From the IMG/VR virus record IMGVR_UViG_3300011604_000001, positions 1 through 44,647 of that record: DNA of 44,647 nt; one strand, 5' to 3'. The position numbers and the translations under genes were made by a program. Below are positions 607-16,363 of this stretch, piece after piece. Every line of letters starts with the position of its first letter. Position 1 is the stretch's first letter. Under the pieces are notes generated by a model. It had not been told where the DNA came from, did no database searches, and saw only the letters and a list, made by a program, of their open reading frames with translations. This DNA is from a virus.

Positions 607-663
607 AAGCCCTCCAAGGCTAAAATAAAAAAGACTCACAACCCATCGCTTAGACTGCAAGCC

Positions 664-696
664 ATAAAAAACCGCTTACACGTTAATGTAGGCGGT
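664..696 (-). terminator. Rho-independent terminator closing the ORF-free leader (tR'-like)
   Basis: Stem accgcttaca / tgtaggcggt (10 bp, one G:U) with a 6-nt loop. On the minus strand it is followed by TTTTTTAT. Confidence 0.7.
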
Positions 697-1148
697 TTGG
701 TGTTTGGGATGGTTTATTTTGCACAGTGTAAACTATCAAGCCACTGTCCTGTAGCACGCTATGAGTGGAGTGTGTGCAATTTCACTATATCTGCTGAATA
801 GGTCATGCGTTTACACCGCACTTAGCACATTTTGATATAAAACCAATCAAAACCTACGAACACTAAAACAGTCTTATAATATAGGACTTGTCGCCTAGTT
901 TCCTAGTTCGACTAATCACAAGGCGGCTAGGCACCCCCAGCCCTGCATACATCGCTAGAAACTATTGATATATGCTTAACCTTGTAAATCTGAAACCGCA
1001 AAACGGCTTCGTAACTTTTTCTACGCATGGCAGATAAGTTAGGTGACCGCTCAATCATCATCGCCGTTTACCTAAATAAAAAGCTAGATTAAGCAGTTAC
1101 CGAGTAGTCCTACTGTACCGTCTAGCGGTAGCCCAGACCTATACAAAT

Positions 1149-1196
1149 ATTCTATTCGTACTTTGCCATTTTGGCTCATTTATCGTTCACAGTCAA
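1149..1196 (-). promoter_or_regulatory. Candidate late promoter (TTGACT-17-CAAAAT) with a downstream -10-like TAGAAT element
   Basis: Minus strand reads TTGACTgtgaacgataaatgagcCAAAATggcaaagtacgaaTAGAAT. The -35 is at 1196-1191, the -10 at 1173-1168, and the -10-like repeat at 1154-1149. Confidence 0.4.
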
Positions 1197-1249: not shown

Positions 1250-1278
1250 TTGACTATCTAATCCGTATTAGATATAAT
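1250..1278 (+). promoter_or_regulatory. Promoter P1 (TTGACT-17-TATAAT) with an 18-bp palindromic operator ATCTAATCCGTATTAGAT filling the spacer
   Basis: The -35 is at 1250-1255, the -10 at 1273-1278 and the operator at 1256-1273. Operator half-sites ATCTAAT/ATTAGAT are inverted repeats. Confidence 0.8.
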
Positions 1279-1316
1279 GACTACATCATCAACAGACATC
1301 CGCACAGGTTATCAAA

Positions 1317-1703
1317 ATGAACAAATCACAACTTTTCAAACAAGCCCACAAATTAGCTAAAAAAGTTATCAAAGCTGGCGACAACTACCGCGTTACTTTT
1401 GGCGCGTGCTTAAAAATGATTGCGTCAATGTTTAAAGTTCCAAGCATTTTACTTGCTAACTCATCAGAATTTTACAAAGCTGAGGGCGTTTATGTGGGTG
1501 ATGACAAGATGCAAGTTAATATGGATGTCAACAGCGAAATGTATGCGCTTGTAAAAAGCGGCAAATCATTCGGCTTTAAAAATGGTTCAAAGACTGCTTA
1601 TGAAATTGTAGTATCTGAAATTAATGAATTATCAGTTAAAGCAGAACGCGGATTATTAAATCTTGTAAATGTTAAATTCTCATTCAAAAATATCTATCTT
1701 TAA
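1317..1703 (+). CDS. Hypothetical protein, 128 aa (first gene of the counter-oriented cassette)
   Basis: ORF directly downstream of P1, with AGGT 7 nt before the ATG. I recognise no family. Confidence 0.7.
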   Translation: MNKSQLFKQAHKLAKKVIKAGDNYRVTFGACLKMIASMFKVPSILLANSSEFYKAEGVYVGDDKMQVNMDVNSEMYALVKSGKSFGFKNGSKTAYEIVVSEINELSVKAERGLLNLVNVKFSFKNIYL

Positions 1704-1728
1704 TTTAAACAAAGCAAGGAGTAAATTC

Positions 1729-1902
1729 ATGGCAAAGAACACCCCAGCGCAACAAGCAGCAGTAAAACGCTATGTCGCACAAACTGAGCAATGGCAAGTT
1801 CGCACTAAAGACCCCAAGCGGATGCAGCTACTCAAGCAAGCAAAAGAGCAGGGAAATCTACCCGAATTATTTTTTGAATTTTTAGAAAAAAATTTTAAAT
1901 AA
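1729..1902 (+). CDS. Small ribbon-helix-helix-like DNA-binding protein, 57 aa (putative autoregulator of P1/P2)
   Basis: AAGGAG lies 7 nt upstream of the ATG at 1729. The pattern is a beta-strand (WQVRT) followed by two helices (PKRMQLLKQAKEQG, LPELFFEFLEK), as in CopG/Arc-type RHH proteins. The upstream part of the called ORF overlaps the previous gene and has no RBS. Confidence 0.5.
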   Translation: MAKNTPAQQAAVKRYVAQTEQWQVRTKDPKRMQLLKQAKEQGNLPELFFEFLEKNFK

Positions 1903-1906
1903 ATGC

Positions 1907-1935
1907 TTGCATATCTAATACGGATTAGATATAAT
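1907..1935 (+). promoter_or_regulatory. Promoter P2 (TTGCAT-17-TATAAT) carrying the exact reverse complement of the P1 operator
   Basis: Operator ATCTAATACGGATTAGAT at 1913-1930 is the reverse complement of 1256-1273 (18/18). The flanking -10 and downstream bases are also similar to P1. Confidence 0.8.
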
Positions 1936-2004
1936 GAACACATCAAGACAAGAAGTGCAGTTCAAATCTTGATACTAACTTAAACACTAATTGGAGTAAA
2001 AATC

Positions 2005-2268
2005 ATGAAAACTATCAAACACTACAGCACAATCGGTCTTAACGTCAATATCAACGGTAAAGTAAAAATGGCTCGCGTATTCTTTGATGTTAAAGAAGAC
2101 AACAGCGTTAAAGTTTATGTTGTTTCAGCGAATAGCTTAAATCAGATTAAATCACTTGGCACTAAGACTATCACTCGTGAGCAATTAGCAAATTTACCCG
2201 ATGACCCTGCTAATGAAGTAATTTTTGCAGAAGCCGCTTTTGCGTTATTTGGTCTTGATATCAACTAA
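2005..2268 (+). CDS. Hypothetical protein, 87 aa (third cassette gene)
   Basis: GGAG RBS. The 5' UTR contains a 7-bp hairpin, atcaaga...tcttgat. No family recognised. Confidence 0.7.
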   Translation: MKTIKHYSTIGLNVNINGKVKMARVFFDVKEDNSVKVYVVSANSLNQIKSLGTKTITREQLANLPDDPANEVIFAEAAFALFGLDIN

Positions 2269-2287
2269 CAAAGAATACAAAAAGATA

Positions 2288-2322
2288 AAGGGTTTAGATG
2301 TGCAGTCTAAACCCTTTTTTTT
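2288..2322. terminator. Bidirectional intrinsic terminator between the cassette and the early-right operon
   Basis: Stem aagggtttaga / tctaaaccctt with a 7-nt loop. A T8 run follows on the plus strand and a T-rich tract follows on the minus strand. Confidence 0.8.
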
Positions 2323-2422
2323 AATCCACCTTTGCGGCGGTAAACACTAATTGCAGTTTACAACCAAATTATTTCATAAGCCACCTTCGCAGTGGTAACT
2401 GCATATTATCAGCTATTAAAAT

Positions 2423-15128: not shown

Positions 15129-15944
15129 ATGAAACTAGATAAAAACTACAAAGTACGCGTTACTCCAGAGCAGAGCCGACAAATTCAAGAGCTACTATTC
15201 GATTGTGGTTTTCAGTGGGCTATGACTGGTCAAACCATTCACTCTGACCGAGAAATTATTTTGATTGAGCCAGATAAGTTGCGATTATTAAATGGGGCAA
15301 AAAGTACGCTCAAATTTTACATTGAAATTGCAGCCGATGACCTAATCGCCCTACTCACTGACTTATCGAAATCAGCAGAAACCCCACTACAAAACATTGA
15401 GCTAACGCCTGAGTTTGAAGTGGTAGAGCCGACATTTAAGGTGGGTGATAAGGTTTATTTTCCACGTCTCTCAAAAAAGCTATGTGTAATAGGCGCGGGA
15501 CAAGAAGATGATTATGTGGACGAAATAAACGGCTCGAAAGCACTAGCAGAGATGCAATCGGATTTAGATTTTGTGTATGACCAAAAAACAAATTCATGGT
15601 TATGGGGTGAAAAAGACTGCGCACCACAGTTGCTACATGCAACCCCCGAAAACTACGAACTGCTATGCAAGCTATATCCGCATATCGAGTTTGAACAACC
15701 AGCCAAAGAGCTGAAGGGTAGTGACCTTTGCCGCGCCATGCTAGATAAGGGTTGGAAATATGTGCCTTGTTATGTGAGCAATACAAGCGACAAAAACGCT
15801 GTAGAACTAGATGACTGTGGGGTTATCTATACAGTCAATCACAATGGTAATTTTCAGGATGGTTATGGTGAGACTTGGTGCCATGTCGTCCCTTTTGACC
15901 TACGCACAGGCGAACCCCTAACCGAGGCGGTACTCGATGAATAA
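15129..15944 (+). CDS. Hypothetical protein, 271 aa
   Basis: ORF with GGA RBS. No family recognised. Confidence 0.6.
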   Translation: MKLDKNYKVRVTPEQSRQIQELLFDCGFQWAMTGQTIHSDREIILIEPDKLRLLNGAKSTLKFYIEIAADDLIALLTDLSKSAETPLQNIELTPEFEVVEPTFKVGDKVYFPRLSKKLCVIGAGQEDDYVDEINGSKALAEMQSDLDFVYDQKTNSWLWGEKDCAPQLLHATPENYELLCKLYPHIEFEQPAKELKGSDLCRAMLDKGWKYVPCYVSNTSDKNAVELDDCGVIYTVNHNGNFQDGYGETWCHVVPFDLRTGEPLTEAVLDE

Positions 15945-16363
15945 AAACCGCCAATAGCACCAAAGTTGATGTAATCGTACCATTGCCACATCAAGCCGTG
16001 AGTATTATTAAAGAGGTTATCACCAAAAACAATCCAAATATTTATGTCTTTGAAACCACTAAGCGAAAAAGTGCCACACCAATGGATAGGTCAGCCATGA
16101 GTAAGTTTTTCCCTTTGATTGGCTATAAAGATAAGCATTGTCCGCATGGCTTTCGTGCGTCCGCTAAAACCATACTCGAAGAAGAATTTGAGTATGACCC
16201 TAGATACGTTGAAATGCAGCTAGGTCATGTGGTCAAGGACAGCAACGGCACGGCTTATAATCGCGCTAAATTTATCAAGCAACGTGCCGAAATGCTGCAA
16301 AAATGGGCTGATTGGTTGGATAGTGCAAGGATAAGCCAAGAAAATCTACAAGAAACTGTGTGA
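15941..16363 (+). pseudogene. int: Truncated tyrosine integrase (C-terminal ~135 aa only, P4-int-like)
   Basis: VPLPHQAVSIIKEV...YVFE...HCPHGFRASAKT...LGHVVKDSNGTAYNRAKF carries the HxxR, LGH and catalytic Tyr boxes. The N-terminal arm, core-binding domain and first catalytic Arg are absent. The reading frame opens immediately after the stop of the upstream gene, and there is no ATG. Confidence 0.7.

What the first reader, a model, noticed from the sequence alone, without database searches (positions are those of the whole stretch)
1250..2322. Counter-oriented three-gene cassette with twin consensus promoters sharing one 18-bp palindromic operator in flipped orientation (acr-aca-like or TA-like)
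- **What is there.** A plus-strand module sits between the putative Q-like gene and the late-operon leader, both on the minus strand.
- **Promoter P1.** TTGACT-17-TATAAT drives a 128-aa unknown protein and a 57-aa RHH-like protein.
- **Promoter P2.** TTGCAT-17-TATAAT drives an 87-aa unknown protein.
- **Shared operator.** In both promoters the whole 17-nt spacer is filled by the same operator. It reads ATCTAATCCGTATTAGAT at 1256-1273 and its exact reverse complement at 1913-1930.
- **Boundary.** The module ends in a strong bidirectional terminator.
- **Interpretation.** A very strong promoter, an operator between -35 and -10, a small unknown protein and a small DNA-binding protein form the canonical architecture of anti-CRISPR/anti-defence (acr-aca) operons. 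The same layout occurs in toxin-first TA modules such as higBA. The insertion site, downstream of Q, is the classical lambdoid moron hot-spot.
- **Novelty.** I recognise none of the three products, so this is my best candidate for an undescribed accessory system.
Basis: partly seen in the sequence, partly recalled or inferred. Interest (0 to 1): 0.78.

Follow-up and report, generated by a model that had tools for sequence, protein, structure and literature searches.

The report
Self-repressed phage accessory-gene cassette, probably anti-defence
A temperate Acinetobacter-type phage carries a small backwards-facing gene cassette whose two promoters each contain the same palindrome, most likely the binding site of the cassette's own 57-residue repressor. 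This is the layout phages use to switch anti-immunity genes on briefly and then off, and it is a new example of a recently described kind rather than a new kind.

Summary
P1 (TTGACT-17-TATAAT, 1250-1278) and P2 (TTGCAT-17-TATAAT, 1907-1935) each hold the 18-bp element ATCTAAT-N4-ATTAGAT in their spacer. They drive ORFs of 128+57 aa and 87 aa, ending at a strong bidirectional terminator.

Thirty-two related loci show that the constant unit is the 57-aa gene plus two operator-bearing promoters. Everything else is swappable:
- 0-3 upstream genes,
- at least seven alternative downstream cargoes,
- four different genome positions.

The palindrome arms are invariant and the 4-bp core varies, so the "flip" is incidental. 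Where the 128-aa gene occurs without the 57-aa gene, both the palindrome and the regulator (an HTH protein) are different.

This is the acr-aca design. It matches most closely the RHH regulator Aca14 (NAR 2026), which represses its own operon and the next one. One related locus has a bona fide Aca1 operon directly adjacent, and another has an AcrVA2-like gene about 2.5 kb from a distant regulator relative.

- A toxin-antitoxin reading is not supported.
- The RHH fold is plausible but unproven.
- All cargo proteins are orphans, so an anti-defence function is inferred, not shown.

Verdict: a new member of a known kind, of moderate interest.

The parts
1250..1278 (+). Promoter P1: -35 TTGACT (1250-1255), 17-nt spacer, -10 TATAAT (1273-1278)
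   Evidence: It is the best sigma-70 match in the window, at 11/12. A homologous operator-bearing promoter occurs in L004, L056, L027, L021, L029-36 and L003.
1256..1273 (.). Operator O1: ATCTAAT-CCGT-ATTAGAT. It fills the P1 spacer and overlaps the first base of the -10.
   Evidence: two sites only, 0.03 expected by chance. The arms are invariant across loci while the core varies.
1317..1703 (+). Cargo gene 1, 128 aa: conserved N-terminal head of about 35 aa on a hypervariable C-terminal body ('slot 1' family)
   Evidence: Identity among 8 variants averages 76% in the head and 23% in the rest. Only the N-terminal helical hairpin is confident in the AF2 model. No Pfam, NCBIfam, PADLOC or PDB hit; the only family match is phrog_12732, of unknown function.
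1729..1902 (+). 57-aa basic protein (pI 9.9), the inferred autorepressor. It is RHH-like by sequence pattern, but the fold is unproven.
   Evidence: define the family. It always co-occurs with the operator, and the operator is absent from loci that lack it. AF2 gives three helices. hhalign gives the Arc register without significance.
1907..1935 (+). Promoter P2: -35 TTGCAT (1907-1912), 17-nt spacer, -10 TATAAT (1930-1935). It begins 4 nt after the 57-aa stop codon.
   Evidence: The same position and structure occur in all related loci.
1913..1930 (.). Operator O2: ATCTAAT-ACGG-ATTAGAT, the exact reverse complement of O1
1942..1973 (+). 5' hairpin of the P2 leader (AUCAAGA...UCUUGAU), of uncertain significance
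   Evidence: Conserved in the P2-type leaders of most loci. Its folding energy is no better than shuffled sequence (z -0.38) and no covariation was seen.
2005..2268 (+). Cargo gene 2, 87 aa: an orphan protein in the exchangeable 'P2 slot'
   Evidence: It is replaced by proteins of 101, 114/137, 132+99, 92, 82 (transmembrane) or 47 aa in other loci. No family or PDB hit.
2287..2317 (.). Bidirectional intrinsic terminator closing the cassette
   Evidence: -18.7 kcal/mol on the + strand (z -6.1) and -14.9 kcal/mol on the - strand (z -4.9).

Best explanation
The region is a self-contained, self-repressed accessory-gene cassette of the acr-aca type.

Proposed mechanism:
- On entry of the phage DNA no repressor is present. 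The near-consensus promoter P1 and its weaker twin P2 fire, producing the 128-aa and 87-aa cargo proteins together with the 57-aa protein.
- The 57-aa protein is small, basic and probably a dimeric RHH-like DNA binder. It then binds the palindrome TCTAAT-N4-ATTAGA, which occupies the -35/-10 spacer of both promoters, and blocks RNA polymerase.
- Expression becomes a short early burst followed by low autoregulated expression.
- The bidirectional terminator insulates the cassette from the converging early operon.

Status of each step:
- Shown by sequence comparison: the pairing of regulator and operator, the two-promoter layout and the exchangeability of the cargo.
- Inferred: DNA binding, repression and timing.
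- Inferred from architecture and neighbourhood only: that the cargo proteins are anti-defence (or other host-takeover) factors.
For: - The promoters and operators are real and non-random.
- In all 23 loci retrieved through cassette proteins (16 via the 57-aa protein, L004-L009 via the 87-aa protein), and in 9 more from a DNA-pattern scan, every 57-aa homologue is accompanied by the palindrome inside a TTGnnT-17-TAnAAT promoter. Where the contig is long enough there are two copies, one upstream of its operon and one just after its stop codon.
- The arms TCTAAT/ATTAGA are essentially invariant. The 4-bp core (CCGT, ACGG, TATA, ACGT, ACTG), the -35, the -10 and the flanks all vary.
- The palindrome is absent from 14 related loci that lack the gene.
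- A 77%-identical 128-aa homologue in L001/L002 has a P2-like promoter with a different palindrome (TGTGCCTAAAATTAGGACA). In L002 it is followed by an HTH protein instead.
- Cargo is exchangeable. Six C-terminal variants occupy slot 1, there are optional genes of 84, 111 and 131 aa, and there are seven alternative P2 cargoes. The cassette sits at four genome positions.
- L115 has an Aca1 homologue (E 6e-19 to PDB 7c0g) in an operon immediately upstream of the 57-aa unit.
- A distant homologue, P0179, lies about 2.5 kb from an AcrVA2-like gene.
- Pasteurella phage Pm86, whose terminase is 64.6% identical, has a counter-oriented small-gene plus Aca1-like pair at the equivalent site.
- The published precedent is Aca14, an RHH regulator with an IR overlapping the -10 that represses its own operon and the downstream operon (PMC13551039).
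Against: - No cargo protein matches any known anti-defence protein, toxin or defence protein in Pfam, PHROGs, NCBIfam, PADLOC or PDB sequences.
- The 128-aa protein is basic (pI 9.6), unlike many acidic Acr proteins.
- Some P2 cargoes are coiled-coil membrane proteins (L021 82 aa; L037 110 aa), which fit superinfection exclusion better than an Acr.
- The DNA-binding fold is unproven. The AF2 monomer model (pLDDT 71.7) shows three helices and no strand, Foldseek against PDB gave nothing, and no Pfam RHH model matches.
- Homology to Aca14 could not be tested.
- The family is rare: 9 representatives among 1.84 billion proteins, and none in GTDB genomes or IMG/VR.
- There is no experimental evidence of any kind.
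Confidence: 0.6

Rival explanations
1. The regulatory circuit is the same, but the cargo serves the lysogen. On this reading the genes are prophage-encoded superinfection-exclusion, defence or lysogenic-conversion genes (classical morons), held at a low steady level by the 57-aa autorepressor.
For: - The cassette has its own promoter and terminator and is inserted between operons.
- The window is a temperate phage, with a CI-like S24 repressor and an integrase fragment.
- Related modules sit at prophage ends next to the integrase (L029-35, L045).
- Some P2 cargoes are coiled-coil proteins with a C-terminal transmembrane segment (L021 82 aa matches phrog_6330; L037 110 aa has a weak XhlA hit).
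- A hypervariable C-terminus on a conserved head also fits a sensor or exclusion protein.
Against: - PADLOC finds no defence-protein match.
- Adjacency to an aca1 operon and proximity to an AcrVA2-like gene point towards counter-defence.
- A near-consensus promoter combined with tight autorepression is the hallmark of burst expression on entry, not of maintenance expression (established for Aca1/Aca2; PMC6765145, PMC9410906 as listed).
Confidence: 0.2
2. The cassette is an immI-like antirepressor module, as in P22 arc-ant. The cargo proteins would inactivate CI-type repressors, either the phage's own or those of resident prophages. The 57-aa Arc-like protein would shut the promoter off after a transient burst.
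For: - The operator lies in the -35/-10 spacer of a strong promoter and the small regulator is encoded in the same operon, as at P22 Pant/Arc (established knowledge).
- hhalign places QWQVRT...G42 on Arc QFNLRW...G30, the correct RHH register.
- Variable C-termini could track diverse repressor targets.
- The cassette lies next to the late genes, as immI does in P22.
Against: - No cargo protein hits ANT, KilA-C, BRO or Rha families.
- The L021 backbone carries a separate pRha/ANT gene elsewhere.
- No Mnt-like second repressor or divergent promoter exists in the cassette.
- The hhalign probability is only 0.6%.
Confidence: 0.1
3. The cassette is a type II toxin-antitoxin module, either toxin-first like higBA or RHH-antitoxin-first like relBE/parDE. 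The 57-aa protein would be the antitoxin and autorepressor.
For: - It contains small genes and a small putative RHH protein with a palindrome in the promoter.
Against: - Neither neighbour is fixed. The upstream slot holds 0-3 unrelated genes and is empty in L029-36, and the downstream slot holds seven alternatives.
- No toxin family matches.
- 57 residues leave no room for a toxin-neutralising C-terminal extension beyond the DNA-binding core (inference).
- The downstream gene has its own promoter, rather than the translational coupling typical of TA pairs.
Confidence: 0.04
4. The palindrome is bound by another factor (the phage CI/Cro or a host regulator), and the 57-aa protein is simply one more cargo protein.
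For: - DNA binding by the 57-aa protein is not demonstrated and its fold is unresolved.
Against: - The palindrome travels with the 57-aa gene across phage backbones that have different immunity regions and different insertion sites.
- It is replaced when the gene is replaced (L001/L002).
- No further copy exists in the window, including the immunity region.
- Distant homologues carry different palindromes in the same promoter positions (L037).
Confidence: 0.05

Closest known systems
Aca14-regulated anti-defence operons (RHH-type anti-CRISPR-associated regulator, Pasteurella multocida; Feussner et al., NAR 2026, PMC13551039)
   Same: - A small regulator (66 aa versus 57 aa here) is encoded at the 3' end of a cargo operon.
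- An AT-rich inverted repeat sits inside the promoter and touches the -10.
- A second, similar site lies in the promoter of the operon immediately downstream, so one regulator controls two adjacent operons.
- The cargo is variable.
- An extra N-terminal helix precedes the putative ribbon. Aca14 has a 'long helical extension', and the AF2 model here has a helix at residues 6-23.
   Different: - Sequence homology could not be tested. An HMMER scan of 1.84 billion representatives found only 9 relatives, none named.
- The RHH fold is not confirmed here.
- Aca14 cargo includes known Acrs (AcrIF6, AcrIF23, AcrVA3, Csx20), whereas all cargo here is orphan.
- The host clade is Acinetobacter/Moraxellaceae-type phages.
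- The operator fills the whole 17-nt spacer.
Canonical acr-aca operons with HTH regulators (Aca1, Aca2)
   Same: - A strong promoter contains an inverted-repeat operator.
- Small variable genes lie upstream of a conserved small autorepressor.
- The module is counter-oriented and sits at a hot-spot next to the packaging/late genes.
- An Aca1 operon directly adjoins the 57-aa unit in L115 and occupies the equivalent site in phage Pm86.
   Different: - The regulator is not an HTH protein and matches no Aca family model or structure.
- A second operator-bearing promoter immediately follows the regulator gene.
P22 immI region (Pant-arc-ant, Arc repressor)
   Same: - A tiny repressor is co-transcribed with its target genes.
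- The operator lies between the -35 and -10 of a very strong promoter.
- The logic is a transient burst followed by shut-off.
- The sequence pattern of the putative ribbon resembles Arc (QWQVRT versus QFNLRW).
   Different: - There is no Ant-like cargo and no Mnt.
- The regulator is the last gene of the operon, not the first.
- The similarity to Arc is not statistically significant.
Lambdoid morons
   Same: - It is an autonomous unit of promoter, genes and terminator inserted between two phage operons, in opposite orientation, at a recombination hot-spot.
   Different: - Morons are usually expressed constitutively from the prophage and lack a dedicated autorepressor with twin operators.

Membership tests
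acr-aca type operon (Aca-regulated anti-defence operon) | Small DNA-binding autoregulator gene at the 3' end of the operon | tested here: inconclusive
   The position is met (57-aa gene last in the P1 operon). The DNA-binding fold is not confirmed.
acr-aca type operon (Aca-regulated anti-defence operon) | Inverted-repeat operator overlapping the operon promoter | tested here: met
   O1 and O2 fill the -35/-10 spacers of P1 and P2. The arms are conserved in 32 related loci.
acr-aca type operon (Aca-regulated anti-defence operon) | Conserved regulator flanked by variable small cargo genes | tested here: met
   Six slot-1 variants, optional genes of 84, 111 and 131 aa, and seven P2 cargoes.
acr-aca type operon (Aca-regulated anti-defence operon) | At least some cargo are demonstrated or recognisable anti-defence proteins | tested here: not met
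   No cargo matches Pfam, PHROGs, NCBIfam, PADLOC or PDB sequences, which include solved Acr structures. Dedicated Acr or anti-defence libraries were not available.
acr-aca type operon (Aca-regulated anti-defence operon) | Co-localisation with known acr/aca genes (guilt by association) | tested here: met
   An Aca1 homologue (E 6e-19 to PDB 7c0g) lies in the operon directly upstream of the 57-aa unit in L115. An AcrVA2-like Pfam hit lies about 2.5 kb from the distant homologue in L037. This was seen in relatives only, not in the window itself.
Aca14 (RHH Aca) | Sequence homology to Aca14 (WP_005725436.1 / HDR1349883.1) | not testable with these tools
The HMMER representative search returned 9 unnamed relatives.
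Aca14 (RHH Aca) | Ribbon-helix-helix fold | tested here: inconclusive
   The AF2 monomer model has helices at 6-23, 29-40 and 44-56 and no strand. Foldseek against PDB gave 0 hits. hhalign against a hand-typed RHH set gave the correct register at 0.6% probability. A conserved alternating polar/hydrophobic pattern, (S/Q)W(T/Q)VRT, fits a ribbon (inference).
Aca14 (RHH Aca) | One regulator with similar IR sites in its own promoter and in the promoter of the adjacent downstream operon | tested here: met
   O1 and O2 are exact reverse complements in the window, and the twin arrangement is conserved. Actual repression is not testable in silico.
Type II toxin-antitoxin (higBA / relBE / parDE with RHH antitoxin) | Recognisable toxin partner | tested here: not met
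   The 128-aa and 87-aa proteins and all alternative cargoes have no hit to a toxin family.
Type II toxin-antitoxin (higBA / relBE / parDE with RHH antitoxin) | Fixed, co-inherited two-gene pair | tested here: not met
   Both neighbours of the 57-aa gene are exchangeable, and the upstream slot is empty in L029-36.
P22 immI (arc-ant-mnt) | Antirepressor cargo (ANT/KilA-C/BRO) and a second repressor (Mnt) transcribed divergently | tested here: not met
   No such Pfam hits. There is no divergent ORF between 1180 and 1316.
Lambdoid moron | Autonomous promoter-gene-terminator unit inserted between phage operons | tested here: met
   The flanks are the conserved late-operon leader on one side and the 163-aa gene of the minus-strand (presumed early-right) operon on the other.

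The most novel reading that the evidence does not exclude
Two linked proposals remain open.
- The 57-aa protein founds a new Aca family, unrelated in sequence to Aca1-14, that is specific to Acinetobacter/Moraxellaceae phages.
- Its most frequent cargo, the 'slot-1' family, is a polymorphic anti-defence effector. In that family a conserved 35-residue helical-hairpin head is fused to hypervariable C-terminal bodies. The head would be a shared adaptor, for example for a partner, for delivery or for a conserved host target. The tails would each neutralise a different immune system.

If so, the cassette and its relatives would yield more than 15 untested candidate anti-defence families.
Probability: 0.3. 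Interest if true: 0.65.

Novelty: new member of a known kind. Interest (0 to 1): 0.48.

Why it matters
If the reading is right, three things follow.
- The operator plus the 57-aa gene is a cheap sequence 'flag' for finding anti-defence genes in Acinetobacter-type phages. These are a clinically important group for phage therapy in which few anti-defence genes are known.
- The comparative set already delivers at least 15 small orphan cargo families to test. One of them is a striking polymorphic family with a conserved 35-aa head.
- It would extend the very recent finding (Aca14) that non-HTH regulators can co-ordinate two adjacent counter-defence operons.

It does not open a new category of system.

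Tried and rejected
- **Family and structure searches on the window proteins.** The three window proteins and the two adjacent proteins of 163 and 67 aa were scanned against Pfam, PHROGs, NCBIfam and PADLOC, and the three cassette proteins against PDB sequences. The only hit was phrog_12732 (unknown function) on the head of the 128-aa protein.
- **Profile searches with the 57-aa family.** A profile against PDB gave only spurious hits. Per-member Pfam scans gave no RHH model.
- **Relatives in public collections.** The 57-aa protein has no relative in GTDB genomes or IMG/VR and no tblastn hit in GenBank phages. The distant relative P0182 has none in plasmids.
- **Operator DNA scans.** Scans of genomes and IMG/VR returned only chance matches, for example Psychrobacter L016 and IMG/VR L020. 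In the metagenome scan, 63 of 72 hits were chance or unrelated.
- **AF2 model of the 128-aa protein.** It was poor (pLDDT 58.7). Foldseek against BFVD found only the N-terminal hairpin, in other uncharacterised phage proteins.
- **AF2 and Foldseek on the 57-aa protein.** No PDB match was found.
- **hhalign tests.** The RHH-looking 66-aa protein of L046 was not significantly related.
- **Concatenated-cargo phmmer against PDB.** This gave linker artefacts only, then nothing.
- **Rfam.** Nothing was found at the gathering threshold, and only noise at E<1.
- **P2 leader hairpin.** As a regulatory RNA it has no energetic or covariation support.
- **Aca14 sequence.** It could not be obtained from the paper or the preprint.
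- **Toxin-antitoxin reading.** It was rejected on the comparative evidence.
Full report
**1. What is in the window**

- P1 is TTGACT (1250-1255), a 17-nt spacer and TATAAT (1273-1278).
- P2 is TTGCAT (1907-1912), a 17-nt spacer and TATAAT (1930-1935).
- Both spacers are filled by an 18-bp element that also supplies the first T of the -10. It reads ATCTAAT-CCGT-ATTAGAT at 1256-1273 and its exact reverse complement at 1913-1930.
- A search allowing 3 mismatches finds only these two sites in 44.6 kb, against 0.03 expected by chance.
- P1 is the best sigma-70 match on either strand of the whole window, at 11/12. P2 has a perfect -10 but only TTG in the -35, giving 9/12.

The ORFs are 128 aa (1317-1703), 57 aa (1729-1902, preceded by AAGGAG) and 87 aa (2005-2268). 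The cassette ends in a 13-bp-stem terminator at 2287-2317. It is strong on the + strand (-18.7 kcal/mol, z -6.1, U8 tail) and weaker but real on the - strand.

**2. Context**

The window is a temperate siphovirus-like genome. Its closest relatives are Acinetobacter phages: the terminase is 69.7% identical at protein level to phage TRS1, and the metallopeptidase gene is about 67-69% identical in nucleotide sequence to A. baumannii phages. It encodes a CI-like S24 repressor, recombination genes, SSB, an integrase fragment and a GH19 endolysin.

The cassette faces against both neighbours. On one side lies the end of the long minus-strand operon (NinB and a 163-aa orphan). On the other lies the leader of the packaging/late operon.

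An alignment of five loci supports the 'late leader' reading. All five share:
- a conserved promoter and initial transcribed region (TTGACA...CAAAAT; window 1196-1168, minus strand);
- a variable insert of 0-450 nt;
- two conserved tandem terminators (window about 696-665 and 663-633, minus strand).

The 163-aa protein is conserved next to the cassette. It matches no family, so 'Q-like' remains a guess.

**3. The proteins on their own say little**

The three cassette proteins have no significant match in Pfam, NCBIfam, PADLOC or PDB sequences. The only hit is phrog_12732 (unknown function) on residues 1-40 of the 128-aa protein. Homologues are few and come mostly from metagenomes.

**4. Comparison with relatives is decisive**

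I retrieved the genomic context of homologues and scanned metagenomes with a promoter-plus-operator pattern, which gave 9 true loci. Together with the window this makes 33 loci carrying a 57-aa homologue.

- Each of these loci has the palindrome inside a TTGnnT-17-TAnAAT promoter.
- Whenever the contig is long enough there are two copies. One lies upstream of the operon that ends with the 57-aa gene, and one starts a few bases after its stop codon.
- The arms TCTAAT/ATTAGA are essentially invariant.
- The 4-bp core varies (CCGT, ACGG, TATA, ACGT, ACTG), as do the -35, the -10 and the flanks.
- L056 has exactly the window's three genes but both cores as ACGG, and L003 also has both as ACGG. The flipped core in the window and L004 is therefore a neutral variant. 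This is expected if a symmetric dimer reads the arms and not the core.

Everything around the regulator is exchangeable.

| Slot | Alternatives seen |
|---|---|
| P1, slot 1 | 128, 134, 125, 111, 130 or 110 aa (one family with different C-termini) |
| P1, other contents | 89 aa; 74 + 103 aa; nothing (L029-36, where a remnant of the 84-aa gene survives) |
| P1, slot 2 | 84 aa, weakly DUF1456-like; present in most loci, absent from the window |
| P1, slot 3 (optional) | 111 or 131 aa |
| P2 | 87, 101, 114/137, 132 + 99, 92, 82 (transmembrane) or 47 aa |

The unit also occurs at four different genome positions:
- next to the packaging genes;
- at the end of an early operon;
- beside the integrase;
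- among genes with faint or weak tail/injected-protein hits.

The converse test also holds.
- Fourteen related loci without the 57-aa gene lack the palindrome.
- In L001/L002 a 77%-identical copy of the 128-aa gene sits behind a P2-like promoter whose spacer holds a different palindrome (TGTGCCTAAAATTAGGACA). In L002 it is followed by a 186-aa protein with a Cro/YdaS-like HTH.
- L001 still carries the last codons of a 57-aa gene upstream of that promoter, which is a recombination scar.
- Distant homologues found by an exhaustive HMMER search (only 9 representatives) keep the layout but have other palindromes. In L037 the sequence is TTGCAT-TTATGATTATAATGATA-TATAAT.

Regulator and operator therefore co-vary. 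This is the strongest evidence available without an experiment that the 57-aa protein binds O1 and O2.

**5. What the regulator is**

- The family conserves an alternating polar/hydrophobic stretch, (S/Q)W(T/Q)VRT. It is followed by a helix ending in Gly and a second amphipathic helix, which resembles Arc (QFNLRW...G...).
- The AF2 monomer model (pLDDT 71.7) shows helices at 6-23, 29-40 and 44-56 and no strand. This is uninformative for an obligate intertwined dimer.
- Foldseek found nothing.

The protein is basic (pI 9.9). The arm centres are 11 bp apart, one helical turn. That spacing fits either two RHH dimers or one dimer that uses its N-terminal helices.

**6. What the cargo is**

All cargo proteins are orphans.

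The 128-aa protein belongs to a notable family. Among eight variants the first 35 residues are 76% identical on average and the rest 23%, which is about noise level. AF2 is confident only for that head, a helical hairpin. Foldseek sees the same hairpin in other uncharacterised phage proteins.

Outside this cassette type the family is usually the first gene of a two-gene module. The second gene encodes a 183-220-aa HTH protein, again behind a promoter with its own palindrome (L002, L045, L046). L045 is an A. calcoaceticus prophage in which the module lies beside the integrase.

**7. Link to counter-defence**

Three neighbourhood observations support this link.
- In L115 the 57-aa unit is immediately preceded, in the same orientation, by a 66-aa gene plus a 73-aa protein. 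That 73-aa protein matches solved Aca1 structures at E 6e-19.
- In L037 an AcrVA2-like gene (Pfam PF26125) lies about 2.5 kb from the distant homologue. A second twin-promoter cassette with another palindrome lies in between.
- Pasteurella phage Pm86 has a terminase 64.6% identical to the window's. Just upstream of its packaging genes it carries a counter-oriented pair of small genes, the second of which is Aca1-like.

The literature supplies the precise precedent. Aca14 is a 66-residue RHH protein with an AT-rich inverted repeat overlapping the -10. It was shown to repress both its own operon and the next operon downstream (PMC13551039).

**8. Mechanism proposed**

- On DNA entry P1 and P2 fire.
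- The 57-aa protein accumulates, binds O1 and O2 and occludes RNA polymerase.
- The result is a burst followed by tight autoregulation.
- The terminator isolates the cassette from the converging minus-strand operon.

The regulatory half of this model I rate at about 0.8. The claim that the cargo is anti-defence I rate at about 0.5, so the combined statement is given 0.6.

**9. Rivals**

- The same circuit drives lysogen-serving exclusion or defence genes (0.2). The membrane-protein cargoes and the prophage-end locations favour this.
- It is an immI-like antirepressor module (0.1).
- Another factor binds the palindrome (0.05).
- It is a toxin-antitoxin module (0.04). The non-fixed gene pairing, the absence of toxin homology and the minimal size of the regulator contradict this.

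**10. Novelty and score**

The design is known: acr-aca in general and the two-operon Aca14 design in particular. New here are the regulator family, its operator, the host clade and a set of untested cargo families. I therefore file it as a new member of a known kind, with moderate interest.

The key limits are:
- there is no experimental evidence;
- the fold is unresolved;
- homology to Aca14 is untested;
- the association with known anti-CRISPR genes is seen in relatives, not in the window itself.

Noticed in passing
window 2326-2340 and 2381-2395 (minus strand); also L003 5026-5070, L004-L009, L115: Two small hairpins (5-bp stem, 5-nt loop) lie on the minus strand between the stop codon of the 163-aa gene and the bidirectional terminator. 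Every sequence variant keeps pairing only as minus-strand RNA, through G.U pairs (CCGCC-GCAAA-GGUGG, CCACU-GCGAA-GGUGG, CCGCU...). The loops GCAAA/GCGAA resemble boxB-type pentaloops. Their function is unknown. In L003 and L115 they lie on the other side of the 57-aa gene, upstream of it, and again just before a bidirectional terminator on the minus strand.
   Followed up: partly
window 626-1196 (minus strand): This is the leader of the late/packaging operon. Five loci share a conserved promoter plus initial transcribed region and two tandem intrinsic terminators (about 696-665 and 663-633), a Q-type antitermination layout. In between lies a variable insert of 0-450 nt. In the window this insert folds far better than shuffled sequence (z -5.4) and has no Rfam match. 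It may be an unrecognised structured RNA.
   Followed up: partly
window 1317-1703 and relatives (L027, L057, L061, L069, L087, L045, L046): This protein family has a conserved 35-aa N-terminal helical hairpin (76% mean identity) on hypervariable C-termini (23%). Many variants share a second short motif, VWEKxxxxRIY(I/L)N. Outside the 57-aa cassette it is paired with 183-220-aa HTH proteins, in two-gene modules that carry their own promoter palindromes.
   Followed up: partly
L115 (reverse strand) about 1340-790; L115 740-720: An acr-aca1-type operon (66-aa orphan plus an Aca1 homologue, E 6e-19 to PDB 7c0g) sits behind a promoter containing TTAGGC-N7-GCCTAA. It is followed by a third promoter, TTGCAT-ATATAAAGGCATTTATA-TATAAT, which drives a 74-aa gene. 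All of this lies directly upstream of the 57-aa unit, forming a compact multi-regulator island.
   Followed up: partly
L037 4715-4750 and 5277-5312; 6098-7111: A second twin-promoter cassette uses a different palindrome (TATAACCTAAGTTATA in the -35/-10 spacer) and a 69-aa RHH-looking protein. Its 86-aa cargo resembles the 89-aa cargo of L021 by eye (shared RL..RL....K..IV.EWT stretch); this was not tested. An AcrVA2-like gene lies next door.
   Followed up: partly
L046 3718-4000 and 2975-3015: A 66-aa RHH-looking protein is followed by the promoter TTGCAA-TCTAACGGACGTTAGAT-TACAAT. The arms of its palindrome (ATCTAAC/GTTAGAT) resemble the window operator. No significant protein similarity to the 57-aa family was found (hhalign).
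   Followed up: partly
window 15129-15944 and 15983-16363 (+): A 126-aa ORF matches only the C-terminal catalytic part of the Phage_integrase family. It follows a 271-aa ORF that has no hit. This may be an integrase split by a frameshift or stop codon, or by an assembly error.
   Followed up: no
L001 5880-5915; L029-L036 (e.g. L029 1860-1930); protein P0175: Several recombination scars show frequent shuffling at the cassette joints. L001 has the 3' end of a 57-aa gene upstream of a promoter with a foreign operator. L029-36 have a remnant of the 84-aa gene (MTAFFDGLL...) between P1 and the 57-aa gene. P0175 is a 90-aa chimera of the 57-aa N-terminus and the 163-aa C-terminus.
   Followed up: no
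L041-L044 (distant homologue P0182, 68 aa): A distant relative of the 57-aa protein sits in a plasmid operon (KorA/ParA backbone). The operon also encodes H-NS-like proteins, an orphan EcoRI-type methyltransferase and a GmrSD-like nuclease. The setting looks like a plasmid anti-defence or establishment region.
   Followed up: no
L121 (Pasteurella phage Pm86) 1813-2342, minus strand: ORF50 (98 aa, orphan) and ORF49 (78 aa) form a counter-oriented pair just upstream of the packaging genes. ORF49 is annotated as an AcrR-family regulator but is 37% identical to the L115 Aca1 homologue. The promoter region contains TTGACAATGGCAACATATTTTTATAAT. This is probably an unannotated acr-aca1 locus.
   Followed up: partly
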